A stretch of 64,000 bases of DNA from Escherichia coli (GTDB taxonomy: Bacteria; Pseudomonadota; Gammaproteobacteria; Enterobacterales; Enterobacteriaceae). Positions 33,804-45,730 of this stretch are shown piece after piece. The stretch is taken from assembly GCF_003991155.1 (NCBI RefSeq), contig NZ_CP031293.1. The stretch is one strand, 5' to 3'. Under the pieces are notes generated by a model that was not told the DNA's origin, searched no databases, and saw nothing but the letters and a program-made list of their open reading frames with translations. The position numbers were made by a program, and so were the translations under genes. The first letter of the stretch is position 1. Each line of letters opens with the position of its first letter.

Positions 33804-34067
33804 CGGAAAGGCGTTAATCAGTTTTACGCCAATATGCTGGGTCATAAAATTACCTATGCAGTTGGGAATAAAAAGCCCCGCAAATGCGAGGCTAAATCCT
33901 GGTATTTGTAATGAACTGGCTCTTATCTCAACGCAGCCCCTTGCCGCGCGCCATATGCTTAACTTCAAGCATCAGCAATGAGATGTTTAATCTGGATTCA
34001 CTCCAGAAGTGATCACCACCCTGCCTACAGAGCCAGATGTGAAGGATGATGAGTAGAATTATCGCTA

Positions 34068-34535
34068 TCATCGAAGGCATTGCGTCCTGATGTATTCCTG
34101 AAGCGTTCTCAGTGCTGTTTGGTCGCGGATAATTCCGTCCCGGATACCGAGAACGTTTCGTCCAGCAACTGGAGAGAGTTCGACGGTGGCATCATTGCCC
34201 ATGCCGGAGGCGCTGGAGGTTTCGGCTGAGGATGGCACAGGGCATTTTCCTTTGACGAGCACCCTGCCACCATTATCAAGCTTGCGCCGAAGAGCATCAT
34301 TTTCAGCTTTCGCATCAGCTAACTCCTTCGTGTATTTAGCATCAAGTGCATCAGCAGTACGCTGGCGCTGCTGCATGTCAGTAATGGTGGCAGTCGCCTG
34401 CTTCAGCTCACTGACTTTTTTATCACGCTGTTCTTTGTAGGCGATGGCGTTATCACGGTAATGATTAACAGCCCATGACAGGCAAACGATGATGCAGATA
34501 ACCAGAGCGGAGATAATCGCGGTTACTTTGCTCAT
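34068..34535 (-). CDS. Rz: i-spanin Rz
   Basis: 155 aa, N-terminal TM and coiled coil; follows endolysin. Confidence 0.8.
34109..34315 (-). CDS. Rz1: o-spanin Rz1, embedded in Rz in alternate frame
   Basis: 68 aa, lipobox MVAGC and Pro-rich [11 protein letters not shown]. Confidence 0.6.
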
Positions 34536-35008
34536 ACCTCAATCTCTCTGACCGTTCCGCCTGCTTCTTTGAATTTTGCAATCAGGCTGTCAGCCTTATG
34601 CTCGAACTGACCATAGCCAGCGCCCGGCAGTGAAGCCCAGATATTGCTGCAACGGTCAATTGCCTGACGAATATCACCGCGATCAATCATCGGTAAAGCG
34701 CCACGTTCTTTAATCTGTTGCAATGCCACAGCGTCCTGGCTTTTCGGAGAGAAGTCTTTCAGGCCAAGCTGCTTACGATAGGCATCCCACCAACGGGAAA
34801 GAAGCTGGTAACGTCCGGCTGCTGTTGATTTGAGTTTTGGGTTTAGCGTGACAAGTTTGCGAGGGTGATCGGAGTAATCAGTAAATAGCTCTCCGCCAAC
34901 AATGACGTCATAACCATGATTCCTGGTTTTCTGTCGTCCGTTATCAGTTCCCTCTGACCACGCCAGCATATCGAGGAACGCCTTACGTTGATTATTGATT
35001 TCCACCAT
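34532..35008 (-). CDS. R: Endolysin (lambda R-like lytic transglycosylase)
   Basis: 158 aa, [24 protein letters not shown]. Confidence 0.95.
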
Positions 35009-35315
35009 CTTCTACTCCGGCTTTTTTAGCAGCGAAGCGTTTGATAAGCGAACCAATCGAGTCAGTACCGATGTAGCCGATGAACACGCTCGTTATATAA
35101 GCGAGATTGCTACTTAGTCCGGCGAAGTCGAGAAGGTCACGAATGAACCAGGCGATAATGGCGCACATCGTTGCGTCGATTACTGTTTTTGTAAACGCAC
35201 CGCCATTATATCTGCCGCGAAGGTACGCCATTGCAAACGCAAGGATTGCCCCGATGCCTTGTTCCTTTGCCGCGAGAATGGCAGCTAACAGGTCATGTTT
35301 TTCTGGCATCTTCAT
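34992..35315 (-). CDS. S: Holin/antiholin (lambda S-like, dual start Met1/Met3)
   Basis: 107 aa, [20 protein letters not shown]. Confidence 0.95.
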
Positions 35316-35605
35316 GTCTTACCCCCAATAAGGGGATTTGCTCTATTTAATTAGGAATAAGGTCGATTTCTGATAGAACAAATCCAGGCTACTGTGTTTA
35401 GTAATCAGATTTGTTCGTGACCGATATGCACGGGCAAAACGGCAGGAGGTTGTTAGCGCAGCCTCTTGCCACCCGCTTTCACGAAGCCAGCCATTGCGCT
35501 GGTTTTCTTTTATGCAAAGCACACCGCACCGTAGCCACAGCGGATAAGGTGATTATTTTGGTCTGTCTGGTATTTGGTTTGATGCGCTTTCAGAAAGGTC
35601 GTGCT

Positions 35606-35645
35606 TAAAACGCAAAAAGCCCCGAGCTATTAACTCAGGGCTTTA
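35606..35645 (-). terminator. Intrinsic terminator just downstream of late promoter (tR'-like)
   Basis: Minus-strand hairpin GCCCTGAGTTAATAGCTCGGGGC followed by TTTTTGCGTTTT. Confidence 0.45.
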
Positions 35646-35664
35646 TTTAACGAGTGCATTTATC

Positions 35665-35710
35665 CATCGTTGAGTCAAATTTACCCAACTTTATTCAAAA
35701 AGTCAATATT
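35665..35710 (-). promoter_or_regulatory. Late promoter pR' with qut-like region
   Basis: Minus strand TTGACT-N17-TAAATT followed by TTGACTCAACGATGG, closely resembling lambda pR' as remembered. Confidence 0.6.
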
Positions 35711-35748
35711 ATGCCGTTAATATGTTGCCATCCGTGGCAATCATGCTG

Positions 35749-36372
35749 CTAACGTGTGACCGCATTCAAGATATTGTCTGCGATTGACTCTTCCTTGTGG
35801 CATTGCACCACCAGAGCGTCATACAGCGGCTTAACAGTGCGTGACCAGGTGGGTTGAGTAAGGTTTGGGATTAGCATCGTTACAGCGCGATATGCGGCGC
35901 TTGCTGGCATTCTTGAATAGCCGACACCTTTGCATCTTCCGCATTCTTTCTCAACAACTCTCCCCCACAACTCTGTTTTGGCAATATCAACCGCACGGCC
36001 TGTACCGTGGCAATCTCTGCATCTTGCGCCCGGCGTCGCGGCACTACGGCAATAATCCGCATAAGCGAATGTTGCGAGCACTTGCAGTACCTTTGCCTTA
36101 GTATTTCCTTCGAGCTTTGCCACACCACGGTATTTCCCCGATACCTTGTGTGCAAATTGCATCAGATAGTTGATAGCCTTTTGTTTGTCGTTCTGGCTGA
36201 GTTCGTGCTTACCGCAGAATGCAGCCATACCGAATCCGGCTTGTGATTGCGCCATCCCCATAGCAGCCATCACATCAGTACCGGAAAGGGAGTCAGAAGC
36301 CGTGGCCCGTGGTGAGTCGCTCATCATCGGGCTTTTTGGCGAATGAAATTTAGCTACGCTTTCGAGTCTCAT
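35749..36372 (-). CDS. Q: Late antiterminator Q (lambda-like)
   Basis: 207 aa, [21 protein letters not shown]; Cys-rich zinc region. Confidence 0.95.
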
Positions 36373-37034
36373 GCGCCTTCTCCCTGTACCTTAATCAATG
36401 TGAGGTTTCCGCAGAACACTGCTCCGGTATCGATATACATTTGGTTGGCAAACTTGAGTGGTTTCACTGCTGGCGTATGACCAAAGATGAACGTGTCCGC
36501 TCCCTTGATTTCTTTTACGATCCCGTCTTGTGAGTTGCTGATTCGTTCGCGGTTCCAGATTACCTGCTGATGAACAACTGGCTTTCCAAACTCGTATTCG
36601 TCACAAGGATAATCGGCGTGGCAGATAACATATTTTTTACCTTTGCTCACCAGTTCAATGATTAACGAAAGTTCATCTGCTTTATGGGCAAGAGCTTTAG
36701 CCAGAATTTCTTTGTCGTAATCGAGATTAAAGAACCAGCCACCGCCATTAAACAGCCAGTGATTGACGTTTCCACGCTCTGATAAGCCATCAATCATCAT
36801 TTGCTCATGGTTTCCACGTACAGCTCTGAACCAGGGGAATGTGATTAATTCCAGGCATTCGACGTTCTCTGTACCGCGATCGACCAAATCGCCAACCGAG
36901 ATAAGCAGGTCTTTTTTGATGTCGAATCCTATCGTCTCCAGTTTTTTCATCAGGTTCGTGTAGCATCCGTGCAGATCGCCAACTACCCAAATATTCCGGT
37001 ATTTGCTGCCATCAATTCTTTCGTAATAGCGCAT
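36369..37034 (-). CDS. ninI: Ser/Thr protein phosphatase (lambda NinI-like)
   Basis: 221 aa from MRYYERIDG; GDLHG and GNHE motifs. Confidence 0.9.
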
Positions 37035-37218
37035 CTCTTTCACTCCATCCGCGATGAACCATGAGAACGTCGTTGACGATGGCGTGCATTTTCCCGTCTT
37101 TATCATCAACGTATTTTCTTACCGTGCCGCGACTACATTTCAGTCTGCGTGCCACTTCTGTCTGGTTTCCGTATGCTTCAACGAGCATGTCTGGAATGGT
37201 TTTTACTGAGAACGTCAT
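37012..37218 (-). CDS. ninH: NinH-like small DNA-binding protein
   Basis: 68 aa, matches lambda NinH pattern. Confidence 0.8.
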
Positions 37219-37826
37219 GCGGCCTCACTTCTGCTATTTCGCAGGTCTTTGAGTTTCTGTTGGTACTCTGCCTTGATCGCCTTGCACTCTTCGACAGTCC
37301 AGCGATGGCGGTTATGGTTTGATTCGATTTCGTCTACTGCTTCCTGCCCGATGCGATTAATCAGTTCGACGCGATACGGAACGAGATTTCCGCTTTTGTG
37401 CTGGTTGCACACCACGCATTGCTTGTGAATATTGCGTTCATCAAATCGGAGTTGAGGTGCCGCAGCAGTTGTCCGGTAATGTCCGGCATCCCACTGAGCA
37501 GACGTGAGCGTTCCGCACGAGATACATGGTAAGTCGCGGTCTCTTTCTCTGATGAAGGCGTTTACGGCTTGTTGGGCTTGTTTAATCCAGTAACTGCGGG
37601 GCTTTAAGGCGAGTTTTCGAATCTTCAGTTTATCTTTCTGTTTCTGCTCCTCTCGTCGTCGTTTCTTCTCTGCTGCTTTTTCCGCTTTTTCGCGTTCTTT
37701 ACTTCGTCGTTCGAGTGCTATCTTGGTTCCACACTCTGGAGAGCACCACCACTGATTAGCGAATGCAGGGTGAAACCATTCCCGACATTCATCGTTTTTA
37801 CATCGTCTTCGCGCTGGTTTAGCCAT
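37215..37826 (-). CDS. ninG: NinG/Rap-like recombination endonuclease
   Basis: 203 aa, Cys-rich N-terminus. Confidence 0.9.
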
Positions 37827-43538: not shown

Positions 43539-44189
43539 ATGAAAACTCAATTGATGGGAGAGCGCATTCGCGCTCGGAGAAAAGAACTCAAGATCAGGCA
43601 GGCCGCACTTGGAAAGATGGTCGGCGTGTCTAATGTTGCCATATCTCAGTGGGAACGCTCTGAGACAGAGCCAAATGGAGAGAATCTTCTCGCCCTGGCT
43701 AATGCGTTGAAGTGTTCCCCTGACTATCTGATGAAAGGAGAGGAAAGTCTTTCAAACATTGCCTATCACAGTAGGCATGATCCAAGAGGGTCATACCCTC
43801 TGATTAGCTGGGTGAGCGCAGGATGCTGGATGGAAGCTGTAGAACCATATCATAAGCGTGCAATAGATAACTGGTACGATACAACCGTAGACTGTTCAGA
43901 AGATTCGTTTTGGTTGGATGTGAAGGGAGACTCAATGACGGCTCCGGCCGGTCTCAGTATCCCTGAAGGAATGATAATACTCGTCGATCCTGAAGTAGAG
44001 CCGCGTAACGGGAAACTGGTAGTTGCAAAGCTCGAAGGAGAAAACGAGGCAACTTTCAAGAAGTTAGTTATTGATGCAGGCAGGAAGTTTCTAAAACCAC
44101 TTAACCCACAATATCCGATGATCGAGATCAACGGAAACTGCAAAATCATCGGCGTAGTTGTCGATGCAAAACTAGCAAACCTTCCATAA
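43539..44189 (+). CDS. c2: C2 repressor (P22-type, LexA-like autocleaving)
   Basis: 216 aa, HTH N-domain and S24 peptidase C-domain. Confidence 0.95.
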   Translation: MKTQLMGERIRARRKELKIRQAALGKMVGVSNVAISQWERSETEPNGENLLALANALKCSPDYLMKGEESLSNIAYHSRHDPRGSYPLISWVSAGCWMEAVEPYHKRAIDNWYDTTVDCSEDSFWLDVKGDSMTAPAGLSIPEGMIILVDPEVEPRNGKLVVAKLEGENEATFKKLVIDAGRKFLKPLNPQYPMIEINGNCKIIGVVVDAKLANLP

Positions 44190-44214
44190 GGGGGCATTCG
44201 CCCCTTTTTTTTAT
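44190..44214 (+). terminator. Intrinsic terminator after c2
   Basis: GGGGCATTCGCCCC followed by TTTTTTTT. Confidence 0.55.
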
Positions 44215-44254
44215 TTCCTTTAAAAATCAAAGCCAAACTTAAGTTACGAAAGAA

Positions 44255-44310
44255 AATTTAAGTTTTCTTCAAAAATACTCTTGACCATTAATTAAAGAGA
44301 TCTTAAATTT
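44255..44310 (+). promoter_or_regulatory. OL operators and PL promoter
   Basis: Operator-like palindrome ATTAAAGAGATCTTAAAT and TTTAAG-containing site; TTGACC -35 at 44281. Confidence 0.5.
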
Positions 44311-44355
44311 AAGCCATCAGCAGGACGCTGGAAGCCAAACGGAACAGATTGGCAG

Positions 44356-44396
44356 GCTCTTTAACATTGATGGGATTGTCCCGCCGAAATGCGGGA
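44356..44396 (+). promoter_or_regulatory. nutL (boxA + boxB hairpin)
   Basis: GCTCTTTAACA then TCCCGCCGAAATGCGGGA, inverted copy of nutR. Confidence 0.55.
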
Positions 44397-44795
44397 ACCA
44401 AAGAGTAGTTGGCTTTGGGATTGGATGAATGAGCAGGCTGATGCTCGACCAATGTATAAACAGCGCTCATGGCAAGCAGTAACCAATCTGCGCCTCAAGA
44501 CAGCGTCACTGGTAGTGCGGGCGCTCTAACCAGTAAGCCGGAGTTCAGCACCGGCCATCCAATCGCCAAAGTCAATTCCATAGGCGTTATGCAGCCGCCA
44601 CCTATTCAAGAAAGCTGCACAAGAGGTAGGAGGATTTATGTGAATACTTACATTCAATTGAGAGATTAATTAAATAGAACTGATCGAGCAGAGTCCATAA
44701 AGGCTCATAAATGCTCTTCCATCCCCGTCTAATTGGCGGGGAAGGAAACCACTTTGTAATAAAAAAATTCCAAAGTTGTTTCATCGGAGGTCAAC

Positions 44796-45095
44796 ATGAC
44801 AGTAGTCATTACATATCTAGCTGACGATAACGCCAGAAATCGCCGCAGAGCACGCAGGCAGGCTCAACGTGAACAGGCAATGCAAGAACAGCGACTGGCG
44901 CGAAAGATTGCGCTAAAGCTCTCTGGTTGCGTCAGAGCAGACAAAGCAGCATCACTCGGAAGCCTTCGCTGCAAGAAGGCAGAAGAAGTCGAGAGTAAAC
45001 AGAACCGTATTTACTACCGCAAGCCACGCAGTGAAATGGGTGTGACTTGTGTTGGTCGCCAGAAAATGAAATTAGGCAGCAAACCACTTATTTGA
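44796..45095 (+). CDS. N-like antitermination protein (P22 gene 24-like)
   Basis: 99 aa, arginine-rich motif NARNRRRARRQAQREQ. Confidence 0.7.
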   Translation: MTVVITYLADDNARNRRRARRQAQREQAMQEQRLARKIALKLSGCVRADKAASLGSLRCKKAEEVESKQNRIYYRKPRSEMGVTCVGRQKMKLGSKPLI

Positions 45096-45106
45096 GAGGA
45101 ATTAAT

Positions 45107-45730
45107 ATGTCATCAATCCGCTTAACTACGAGAATGAAAGAGAAAATCGCTCGTAACGCTTTAATTAAGTCTGGGGTTTTCACTGAACTTGAAGAAGTAA
45201 CAAAGTTAAAGAACCAGCTTGCACTTGACGCCAGAGTTATTGCGTTTGGCGGTAAAAAGAAAACTGAGGAAGTGGATCAGTTATCATCCAGGTTAGTAGC
45301 TATAAGTGAAGAACTTGAAAAGATGGGATGTTCATTTTACTCATACGATGTTCGTTCTACTTCAATTTATCTGACTGTATCTGGCAGAAGGGTTGGATGG
45401 CATTCATATGGGAAAGACGGCAACGGCGAAGATATATTGCTCCCTACTCCAACCAAAGATAAATGCATGTTTGATGCAGAACACGAAATAACAAAAAGGT
45501 TTGATGAAATCTGCGCATTGCAACAAAAACTTGAAGCCAAGAAAAAGGATATCGAATCAAATGTATGGGCTGCTTTGAACTCAGTCACAACAGTTAAGCG
45601 ACTTATTGAAGTTTGGCCTGAAAGCAAAGAATTGCTACCAAAAGAAGCAGACAAAGCAAGTACAGCACTTCCTGCTTTACGGGTAGAAGATTTGAATAAG
45701 ATGATTGGACTTCCTTCCGAGTCCGCATAG
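45107..45730 (+). CDS. Hypothetical early-left protein
   Basis: 207 aa from ATG with GAGAGGA RBS; soluble, no recognised motif. Confidence 0.45.
   Translation: MSSIRLTTRMKEKIARNALIKSGVFTELEEVTKLKNQLALDARVIAFGGKKKTEEVDQLSSRLVAISEELEKMGCSFYSYDVRSTSIYLTVSGRRVGWHSYGKDGNGEDILLPTPTKDKCMFDAEHEITKRFDEICALQQKLEAKKKDIESNVWAALNSVTTVKRLIEVWPESKELLPKEADKASTALPALRVEDLNKMIGLPSESA

What the first reader, a model, noticed from the sequence alone, without database searches (positions are those of the whole stretch)
35606..35710. Lambda-like pR'/qut followed within about 70 nt by a strong intrinsic terminator
The late promoter closely resembles lambda pR' as I remember it (TTGACT-N17-TAAATT, then TTGACTCAACGATGG). 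The sequence then departs from lambda and places a GC hairpin plus T-run about 35-70 nt downstream, with S only about 355 nt from the promoter, so the Q-independent terminated transcript would be much shorter than lambda 6S RNA. This shows a recombination junction inside the late leader.
Basis: partly seen in the sequence, partly recalled or inferred. Interest (0 to 1): 0.3.

Follow-up and report, generated by a model that had tools for sequence, protein, structure and literature searches.

The report
P22/HK97-type short late-leader terminator behind lambda Q

Summary
The Q ORF (36372-35749) is 207/207 aa identical to lambda Q. Downstream lie pR' (-35 at 35706-35701, -10 at 35683-35678), the lambda-type Q-binding spacer, the sigma-dependent pause element AACGAT (+1 = 35671) and a 13-bp hairpin with a U-run (35644-35607). 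Q-free transcripts should therefore end at about +60, against 194 nt for lambda 6S RNA. S starts at +357.

Alignment to lambda shows collinearity through +23. A 162-bp segment (35648-35487) then replaces lambda 44610-45014 (405 bp). Collinearity resumes 171 nt before S. The recombination-junction reading is supported, but with two boundaries.

This cassette is the known P22/HK97/HK022 late leader. The P22 record annotates the same hairpin as tR', antiterminated by gene 23 protein. The cassette occurs in 89 phage records and 260 of 5426 complete E. coli genomes, so it is at least as common as lambda's version. The same terminator also sits behind other Q families, with compensatory stem changes.

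Verdict: real, correctly read, already known, low interest.

Seen in passing: the cassette also holds a covarying ~75-nt stem-loop with no Rfam match. It is homologous to the reported P22 small RNA "P22E".

The parts
35749..36372 (-). Q antiterminator gene (207 aa)
   Evidence: ORF listed. It is 207/207 aa identical to lambda Q. Pfam PF03589 matches at E = 6e-58. All 15 nt differences from lambda are synonymous.
35701..35706 (-). pR' -35 hexamer TTGACT
   Evidence: Identical to lambda 44552-44557.
35684..35700 (-). 17-nt promoter spacer that holds the lambda-type Q binding element (TTTTGAATAAAGTTGGG)
   Evidence: 15 of 17 positions match lambda. The same two substitutions occur in P22, HK97 and HK022. 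GenBank records of close relatives annotate this stretch as a qut site with 1-2 mismatches.
35678..35683 (-). pR' -10 hexamer TAAATT
   Evidence: Identical to lambda 44575-44580.
35673..35678 (-). -35-like TTGACT just upstream of the pause element. In lambda this is where sigma region 4 is repositioned during Q loading.
   Evidence: The sequence is identical to lambda. The role is taken from PMC9388147 and from my own knowledge of the lambda pR' literature.
35666..35671 (-). Transcription start (+1 = 35671) and the -10-like element AACGAT of the sigma-dependent pause element
   Evidence: Identical to lambda 44587-44592. The P22 record marks the homologous base as the 5' nt of the late RNA.
35655..35656 (-). 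Predicted sigma-dependent pause positions +16/+17
   Evidence: Inferred by position from lambda. The sequence from +9 to +17 differs from lambda at 4 positions.
35616..35644 (-). tR'-type terminator hairpin (13 bp, 3-nt loop)
   Evidence: The homologous hairpin is annotated 't late or tR'' in P22 record BK000583. Stem pairs 7-9 show compensatory changes across 16 variants.
35607..35618 (-). U-run UUUUUGCGUUUU. Predicted release is around +58 to +62.
   Evidence: Read from the sequence. The release point is inferred from the usual geometry of intrinsic terminators.
35487..35648 (-). 162-bp non-lambda cassette (P22/HK97/HK022 allele of the late leader) that replaces lambda 44610-45014
35516..35590 (-). 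Covarying ~75-nt stem-loop. The basal stem pairs AAAGCGCAUC with GGUGUGCUUU. The loop is rich in A and C and poor in G.
   Evidence: It is homologous to the P22 'P22E' small RNA.
35487..35511 (-). Conserved A-run AAAAGAAAA followed by the hairpin CCAGC-GCAAUG-GCUGG. Read on the + strand it has the form of an intrinsic terminator pointing towards Q. It abuts the right-hand lambda junction.
   Evidence: + strand site 35483-35506; the third pair changes from A-T to C-G.
35316..35486 (-). Distal late leader, 167 of 171 nt identical to lambda 45015-45185. It includes the stem-loop at the S start.
34992..35315 (-). Holin gene S (107 aa, dual start). It is followed by R (35008-34532) and Rz (34535-34068).
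   Evidence: S differs from lambda S by 1 aa.

Best explanation
The region is the late-gene switch of a lambdoid prophage that uses lambda-specificity Q.

How it most likely works:
1. RNA polymerase with sigma-70 starts at pR' (+1 = 35671).
2. It pauses at about +16/+17 because sigma region 2 rebinds the -10-like AACGAT.
3. Without Q, it resumes and terminates at the hairpin and U-run at about +60, releasing a short RNA.
4. With Q, which is made from the early rightward operon after induction, Q bound between the -35 and -10 elements joins the paused complex with NusA.
5. Q forms a nozzle on the RNA exit channel that prevents the terminator hairpin from forming. Transcription then runs through the 357-nt leader into S, R, Rz and the structural genes.

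The control module (Q, pR', Q binding element, pause element) is lambda's. From +24 onward, the terminator and proximal leader are the P22/HK97/HK022 allele, joined by past recombination at module boundaries.

Shown here: sequence identity, the junction positions, the hairpin and its conservation.
Inferred: promoter activity, the pause, the termination point and Q-dependent read-through.
For: - The Q protein is identical to lambda Q.
- pR', the -35-like element and AACGAT are identical to lambda, and the spacer matches at 15 of 17 positions.
- The lambda-type pattern is unique in the window and absent from shuffles.
- The hairpin with U-run is the strongest terminator-like site nearby. Its dG is -18.7 kcal/mol and the fold z-score is -4.84.
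- The homologous P22 hairpin is annotated as tR', antiterminated by gp23. Emek and ES18 records also annotate a terminator there.
- P22 gp23 and lambda Q are reported to be interchangeable (PMC8022706; PMC2629481).
- A short antitermination-regulated RNA from the P22 late promoter is cited from work published in 1976 (PMC7547250).
- 23 of 24 distinct terminator variants from 120 viral contigs keep a hairpin of -15 to -23 kcal/mol abutting the U-run. Stem pairs 7-9 change on both sides.
- The same terminator follows lambda Q, 254-257-aa PF03589 proteins with a different promoter, a PF06530 Q and a 196-aa protein with no Pfam match. This fits a generic intrinsic terminator read through by whichever Q is upstream.
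- The components match the Q-dependent regulatory cassette defined in PMC9388147.
Against: - Nothing here measures transcription, pausing or termination.
- The proximal U-tract has only five U before GCG, so efficiency could be below that of lambda tR'.
- Positions +9 to +17 differ from lambda at four sites, so the exact pause position is assumed.
- The viral-contig set was collected with a pattern that fixed the 3' lower arm and the U-run. Only the upper stem and the 5' arm are therefore free tests of conservation.
- Most database 'terminator' labels for this hairpin are themselves predictions.
Confidence: 0.9

Rival explanations
1. The short pR'-tR' RNA (about 60 nt) is not just a by-product. 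It would be a trans-acting, Hfq-type small RNA made constitutively in lysogens, as StxS is in Shiga-toxin phages. This adds to the best explanation and does not exclude it.
For: - PMC7547250 shows that the terminated pR' RNA of Stx phages is a functional Hfq-binding sRNA, and proposes that the same may hold for other lambdoid phages.
- The predicted RNA has a 5' hairpin, an A/U-rich linker and a terminator hairpin with a U-tail.
Against: - No target, Hfq binding or expression data exist for this RNA.
- Conservation of +1 to +23 is already explained by the pause and Q-loading requirements.
- The P22 small-RNA survey lists ten RNAs, and none is placed at these coordinates in the passages I read.
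Confidence: 0.12
2. The hairpin mainly serves another purpose: a bidirectional or antisense terminator protecting Q from transcription entering from the lysis side, or simply a stabilising RNA structure. It would not be the Q-regulated terminator.
For: - The 5' flank of the hairpin is A-rich (UAAAUAAA), so the complementary strand also reads as a hairpin followed by a T-rich run.
- A second hairpin, 110 nt downstream, has the form of a + strand terminator.
Against: - The scan reports this hairpin as a terminator only on the minus strand.
- No + strand promoter-like site lies between S and the hairpin.
- In every Q context found, the hairpin sits at the same place, 30-60 nt after a late promoter.
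- A Q cassette needs a terminator, and no other candidate lies between pR' and S.
Confidence: 0.04
3. The region is an inactive relic of a decaying prophage, so the arrangement has no present function.
For: Prophages in E. coli chromosomes are often defective. I did not check the whole prophage for completeness.
Against: - The Q ORF is intact, and all 15 differences from lambda are synonymous, which indicates purifying selection.
- S, R and Rz are intact.
- The 461-bp Q-S interval is 96-98% identical to those of plaque-forming phages HK140, HK544, HK022 and others.
Confidence: 0.05
4. The short leader arose from a lambda-type leader by a simple internal deletion of about 245 bp.
For: The interval is shorter than lambda's by 243 bp.
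Against: - The 162 bp between the junctions is unrelated to the 405 bp of lambda. The only similarity is a 29-nt, 79% match with E = 0.027 next to the right junction.
- The 162 bp is shared as a unit with P22, HK97 and HK022.
Confidence: 0.02

Closest known systems
Phage P22 late control region (gene 23, P late/pR', qut, t late/tR'; GenBank BK000583)
   Same: - The Q family and the promoter/qut sequence are the same.
- The hairpin sits at the same position (+31 to +59 in P22).
- The whole proximal leader is homologous: 77% over the 162-bp cassette, and the hairpin differs only in its loop.
   Different: - P22 is a Salmonella phage.
- Its leader is diverged, with another version of the covarying basal stem.
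- Its holin gene 13 differs from lambda S.
Coliphages HK97, HK022, HK140, HK544, mEp234, Sf101 and Salmonella phage Emek (Q-S interval)
   Same: The whole Q stop-to-S start interval is 94.6-98% identical, with the same pR', terminator, leader and lambda-type S.
   Different: Only point differences. For example, single stem mismatches occur in HK022 and HK140.
Phage lambda pR'-qut-6S RNA-tR'
   Same: - The Q protein is identical.
- pR' and the pause element are identical, and homology runs through +23.
- The last 171 nt of the leader and S, R and Rz are 98% identical.
   Different: - Lambda terminates at +194, at a different hairpin (dG about -27 kcal/mol).
- Lambda carries 405 bp (6S body, tR', orf-64) where the window has 162 unrelated bp.
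Stx-phage pR'-tR' RNA (StxS; PMC7547250)
   Same: The logic is the same: a constitutive late promoter terminated just downstream in lysogens, giving a short RNA.
   Different: - The Q type and the sequence are different.
- StxS is processed from a longer precursor and has shown Hfq binding and targets. Nothing comparable is known for this RNA.

Membership tests
Q-dependent late-gene regulatory cassette, Q-lambda type (as defined in PMC9388147) | A gene for a Q-lambda family protein lies immediately upstream. | tested here: met
   207/207 aa identical to lambda Q. PF03589 matches at E = 6e-58. The ORF ends 77 nt before +1.
Q-dependent late-gene regulatory cassette, Q-lambda type (as defined in PMC9388147) | A pR' promoter with the Q binding element between -35 and -10. 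| tested here: met
   Both hexamers are identical to lambda, and the spacer matches at 15 of 17 positions. The same spacer occurs in P22, HK97 and HK022. Actual binding was not tested.
Q-dependent late-gene regulatory cassette, Q-lambda type (as defined in PMC9388147) | A sigma-dependent pause element (-10-like sequence in the initially transcribed region). | tested here: met
   AACGAT at +1 to +6 and the upstream TTGACT are identical to lambda. The pause itself cannot be tested here.
Q-dependent late-gene regulatory cassette, Q-lambda type (as defined in PMC9388147) | An intrinsic terminator between the pause element and the late genes. | tested here: met
   A 13-bp hairpin with a U-run at +28 to +65, with compensatory stem changes across variants.
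Q-dependent late-gene regulatory cassette, Q-lambda type (as defined in PMC9388147) | Late (lysis and morphogenesis) genes lie downstream. | tested here: met
   S, R and Rz follow directly and are 98% identical to lambda at the DNA level.
Q-dependent late-gene regulatory cassette, Q-lambda type (as defined in PMC9388147) | Q- and NusA-dependent read-through of the terminator. | not testable with these tools
   This needs in vitro transcription or reporter assays.
Lambda 6S RNA / lambda tR' allele | Homology to lambda 44610-44780 and a terminated transcript of about 194 nt. | tested here: not met
   No homology after +23. The predicted terminated RNA is about 60 nt.
P22/HK97/HK022-type short late leader (tR' at about +31 to +59) | Sequence homology across the terminator and the proximal leader. 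| tested here: met
   Over the 162-bp cassette, identity is 92.6-98.1% to the E. coli, Shigella and Emek relatives listed (including HK544, HK97 and HK022) and 77% to P22. 89 phage records cover at least 80% of it.
P22/HK97/HK022-type short late leader (tR' at about +31 to +59) | The hairpin sits at the position annotated as tR' in P22. | tested here: met
   In P22, +1 is at locus position 878 and the terminator at 908-936. In the window, +1 is 35671 and the hairpin is at +28 to +56.
Any described RNA family (Rfam 15) | A covariance-model match in 34800-36500, either strand. | tested here: not met
   0 matches at E <= 1.
StxS-like Hfq-dependent sRNA derived from pR'-tR' | Hfq binding, stability and base-pairing targets. 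| not testable with these tools
   Only the architecture (terminator hairpin with a U-tail) can be seen.

The most novel reading that the evidence does not exclude
The non-lambda cassette may be more than a terminator. It would then encode two RNA elements with functions of their own.

1. A constitutive pR'-tR' RNA of about 60 nt, with the architecture of an Hfq-type sRNA.
2. Downstream of it, a ~75-nt stem-loop (35590-35516) whose basal stem exists in six covarying versions. It displays a C-rich, G-poor loop and is followed by a conserved A-run and a second covarying hairpin. It has no Rfam family and is homologous to the abundant P22 'P22E' RNA.

The stem-loop could be a processing or stability element of the late mRNA. 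It could also be a Rho-loading site that backs up tR' when Q is absent.
Probability: 0.25. Interest if true: 0.4.

Novelty: already known. Interest (0 to 1): 0.12.

Why it matters
It matters little for new biology. The arrangement is the textbook Q antitermination cassette in the allele carried by P22, HK97, HK022 and many prophages, and the mosaic joints at module boundaries are the classic picture of lambdoid phage evolution.

Three points are still useful:
- Lambda's 194-nt 6S RNA is one allele among several. The ~60-nt version is at least as frequent in nature.
- The left joint falls directly after the sequences needed for Q loading (+23). One terminator cassette serves several unrelated Q families, which illustrates that the terminator is generic while the qut site is specific.
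- The leader downstream of the terminator holds a covarying RNA structure with no described function. This could be worth a small experiment.

Tried and rejected
- The generic sigma-70 scan alone does not separate pR' from chance: 4 sites against 4.1 expected. I relied on homology and a specific pattern instead.
- Rfam at E <= 1 found nothing in 34800-36500.
- A MAFFT alignment of the terminator variants (A2) put the 5' arms out of register. I dropped it for pair counting and listed pairs anchored at the stem base instead.
- For the same reason, the second hairpin was analysed with an anchored script, not with the count of structure pairs.
- I rejected the idea of a simple deletion from lambda.
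- I looked for a + strand promoter that would give the + strand terminator-like hairpin at 35483-35506 something to terminate. None was predicted.
- Thermodynamics alone does not support the 75-nt stem-loop: z = -1.16. Its support is covariation only.
- A literature search for RNase III or other processing in this type of late leader found nothing relevant.
- A weak 29-nt similarity (23/29, E = 0.027) links the sequence after the window's terminator to the sequence after a lambda hairpin at 44951-44998. It hints at a shared boundary sequence but is too weak to build on.

Full report
**What is there.**
All features lie on the minus strand.
- A 207-codon ORF at 36372-35749 is followed by the lambda lysis genes: S (35315-34992), R and Rz.
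- The ORF product is 207/207 identical to lambda Q and matches Pfam PF03589 at E = 6e-58. All 15 nucleotide differences from lambda in this ORF are synonymous.
- Between Q and S the sequence reads TTGACT (35706-35701), a 17-nt spacer, TAAATT (35683-35678), TGACTC, then AACGATGG with +1 at 35671.
- The generic promoter scan is not above chance on its own: 4 sites against 4.1 expected. However, the 43-nt lambda-type pattern is unique in the 64-kb window and absent from 100 shuffles.
- The terminator scan's best site in 34000-37500 is a 13-bp hairpin at 35644-35616 followed by TTTTTGCGTTTT. Its dG is -18.7 kcal/mol. The first 72 nt of the transcript fold with z = -4.84. The hairpin persists when the full 356-nt leader is folded.
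- The G-C core spans +31 to +53, so release is expected near +58 to +62. S starts at +357.

- blastn against lambda 43800-45600 (fetched) gives two collinear blocks. Window 36400-35649 matches lambda 43858-44609 at 96.9%. Window 35486-34901 matches lambda 45015-45600 at 98.1%.
- Lambda +1 is 44587, so homology runs through +23. It is already weaker from +9 to +17, where four positions differ.
- Between the blocks, 162 bp of the window (35648-35487) stand where lambda has 405 bp. Those 405 bp hold the body of 6S RNA, tR' ending near 44780, and orf-64.
- The two segments are unrelated apart from a 29-nt, 79% match with E = 0.027 beside the right junction.
- This is a cassette replacement with two boundaries. 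It is not a deletion and not a single junction.

**What the cassette is.**
- The 461-bp interval from the Q stop to the S start is 94.6-98% identical to HK140, HK544, ECP1, HK106, mEp234, HK022, HK97, Sf101 and Emek.
- The 162-bp cassette alone is found at 80% coverage or more in 89 phage records, including P22 at 77% identity.
- The curated P22 record BK000583 marks the homologous promoter as 'P late or pR'', the qut site and the RNA 5' nucleotide. It marks the homologous hairpin, 30-58 nt after that start, as 't late or tR'; antiterminated by gene 23 protein action'.
- Emek and ES18 records also label a terminator there.
- Lambda's own 405-bp segment is held nearly whole by only 24 phage records, mostly lambda itself and close derivatives.
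- Among 5426 complete E. coli genomes, 260 carry the short cassette and 217 the lambda one. The listed top hits for the lambda one include laboratory K-12 derivatives.
- The window thus carries a common, already annotated allele.
- The literature agrees. Lambda Q and P22 gp23 are near-identical and interchangeable (PMC2629481; PMC8022706). Short antitermination-regulated RNAs from the late promoters of phages 21, phi80, 82 and P22 were described in the 1970s-90s, as cited in PMC7547250.

**Is the hairpin a real terminator?**
I scanned viral contigs for the 3' lower arm plus U-run plus six following bases.
- These loci hold 24 distinct 45-nt terminator segments. 23 of them fold into a hairpin of -15 to -23 kcal/mol abutting the U-run.
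- Listing pairs from the stem base across 16 variants gives: pair 7 as A-T, C-G or G-C; pair 8 as G-C or A-T; pair 9 as U-G, G-C, A-U or U-A. The upper stem is therefore kept by compensatory change.
- The lower 3' arm was fixed by the search pattern, so it is not a free test.
- The sequence upstream of the hairpin falls into several unrelated classes: the lambda-type pR'/qut, an ES18/ST104-type promoter, a third promoter type, and others.
- The upstream genes are lambda Q, 254-257-aa PF03589 relatives, a PF06530 (phage 21/82-type) Q, and a 196-aa protein with no Pfam match.
- In some of these classes, homology to the window begins exactly at the base of the hairpin.
- In HK633 the same pR' and terminator are followed by a different leader of about 950 bp. 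In Hafnia phage Meifeng the terminator is followed directly by two tRNA genes.

The hairpin behaves as a generic, portable intrinsic terminator placed after whichever Q-loading site is present.

**Mechanism.**
The parts match the Q-dependent regulatory cassette as defined structurally for Q-lambda: Q gene, pR', Q binding element, sigma-dependent pause element, terminator, late genes (PMC9388147).
- Polymerase starting at pR' pauses when sigma region 2 rebinds the -10-like AACGAT.
- Q bound between -35 and -10 joins it with NusA and forms a nozzle on the RNA exit channel. This prevents terminator hairpins from forming.
- Without Q the polymerase terminates at tR'.
- In this allele the hairpin begins only about 14 nt beyond the pause site. 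That is compatible with loading at the pause, because the RNA 5' end threads the nozzle at 14-16 nt.
- The sequence facts are shown here. Promoter activity, pausing, the termination point and Q dependence are inferred from lambda and P22.

**Seen in passing, inside the same cassette.**
Downstream of the terminator, leaders from 25 non-redundant sources align (A3). Each folds on its own into the same ~75-nt stem-loop.
- In the window, AAAGCGCAUC (35590-35581) pairs with GGUGUGCUUU (35525-35516).
- Six different versions of this basal stem exist, and all of them pair.
- On A3, 94% of cells are standard pairs, against 38-54% when the partner is slid by 1-3 columns.
- 5 of 10 pairs change on both sides. 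There are 35 such cells, against 14.4 +/- 2.9 in shuffles (RNAalifold agrees).
- The sequences fall into only a handful of lineages, so independent events are few. Thermodynamic stability alone is unremarkable, with z = -1.16.
- The enclosed 40 nt are A/C-rich and G-poor: 19 A, 12 C, 3 G, 6 T. This matches a local strand-skew peak.
- Several contig classes diverge immediately after the 3' arm of the stem, which suggests the stem-loop is a unit.
- The homologous P22 stretch is the 101-nt 'P22E' small RNA reported from RNA-seq of infected cells and vesicles (PMC13397905).
- A conserved AAAAGAAAA follows (35511-35503), then a second hairpin (35502-35487) whose third pair switches between A-U and C-G.
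- Read on the + strand, that second hairpin is a canonical terminator-like site pointing toward Q, but no + strand promoter is predicted between it and S.
- It abuts the right-hand lambda junction.
- Rfam has no match.

The function is unknown. My candidates are a processing or stability element of the late mRNA, or a Rho-loading site backing up tR'.

**Verdict.**
The feature is the known P22/HK97/HK022-type tR' and late leader attached to a lambda Q/pR'/qut module. It is an ordinary example of lambdoid mosaicism with joints at functional boundaries. Interest is low. The only lead of some novelty is the covarying leader structure.

Noticed in passing
window 35516-35590 (minus strand): A ~75-nt stem-loop in the late leader just after the terminator. 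Its basal stem exists in six covarying versions among 25 related leaders: 94% of cells are paired against 38-54% for slid controls, and 5 of 10 pairs change on both sides. The loop is A/C-rich and G-poor. There is no Rfam match. It is homologous to the reported P22 small RNA 'P22E'.
   Followed up: partly
window 35487-35511 (minus strand); + strand site 35483-35506: A conserved A-run followed by a 5-bp hairpin with one compensatory pair (A-U to C-G), sitting exactly at the right-hand junction with lambda. On the + strand it reads as a canonical intrinsic terminator pointing from S toward Q, but no + strand promoter is predicted upstream of it.
   Followed up: partly
window 35749-36372 (minus strand): The Q ORF differs from lambda Q at 15 nucleotides, all synonymous (14 in third codon positions). 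The protein is 100% identical although the DNA has diverged by about 2.4%, which indicates strong purifying selection.
   Followed up: yes
window 35582-35613 and 35472-35487; lambda 44999-45027 (L001:1200-1228): The sequence after the window's terminator (GCGTTTTAAGCACGACCTTTCTGAAAGCG) matches 23 of 29 positions in lambda, just after a hairpin at 44951-44998 and at the right junction. The motif TTC(G)TGAAAGCG recurs at both ends of the stem-loop module. This may be a boundary sequence used in recombination, but the evidence is weak (E = 0.027).
   Followed up: partly
L001:1067-1153 (lambda 44866-44952, inside the lambda-only 405 bp; not in the window): This lambda stretch matches annotated tRNA genes (tRNA-Lys / tRNA-OTHER) of rV5-like phages at 82-83% identity. 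It may be a tRNA-gene remnant in lambda's late leader, at the position where other lambdoid phages carry tRNA genes.
   Followed up: no
L009 (HK633) 901-1822; L010 (Hafnia phage Meifeng) 901-1093: The same terminator hairpin is followed by other inserts: about 950 bp of unrelated leader in HK633, and tRNA-Arg plus tRNA-Thr in Meifeng. The site just after tR' is therefore a hotspot for cargo insertion.
   Followed up: partly
L099 and relatives (viral contigs): A 196-aa protein with no Pfam match occupies the Q position, directly upstream of a late-promoter-like region and this terminator. It may be an undescribed antiterminator type.
   Followed up: no
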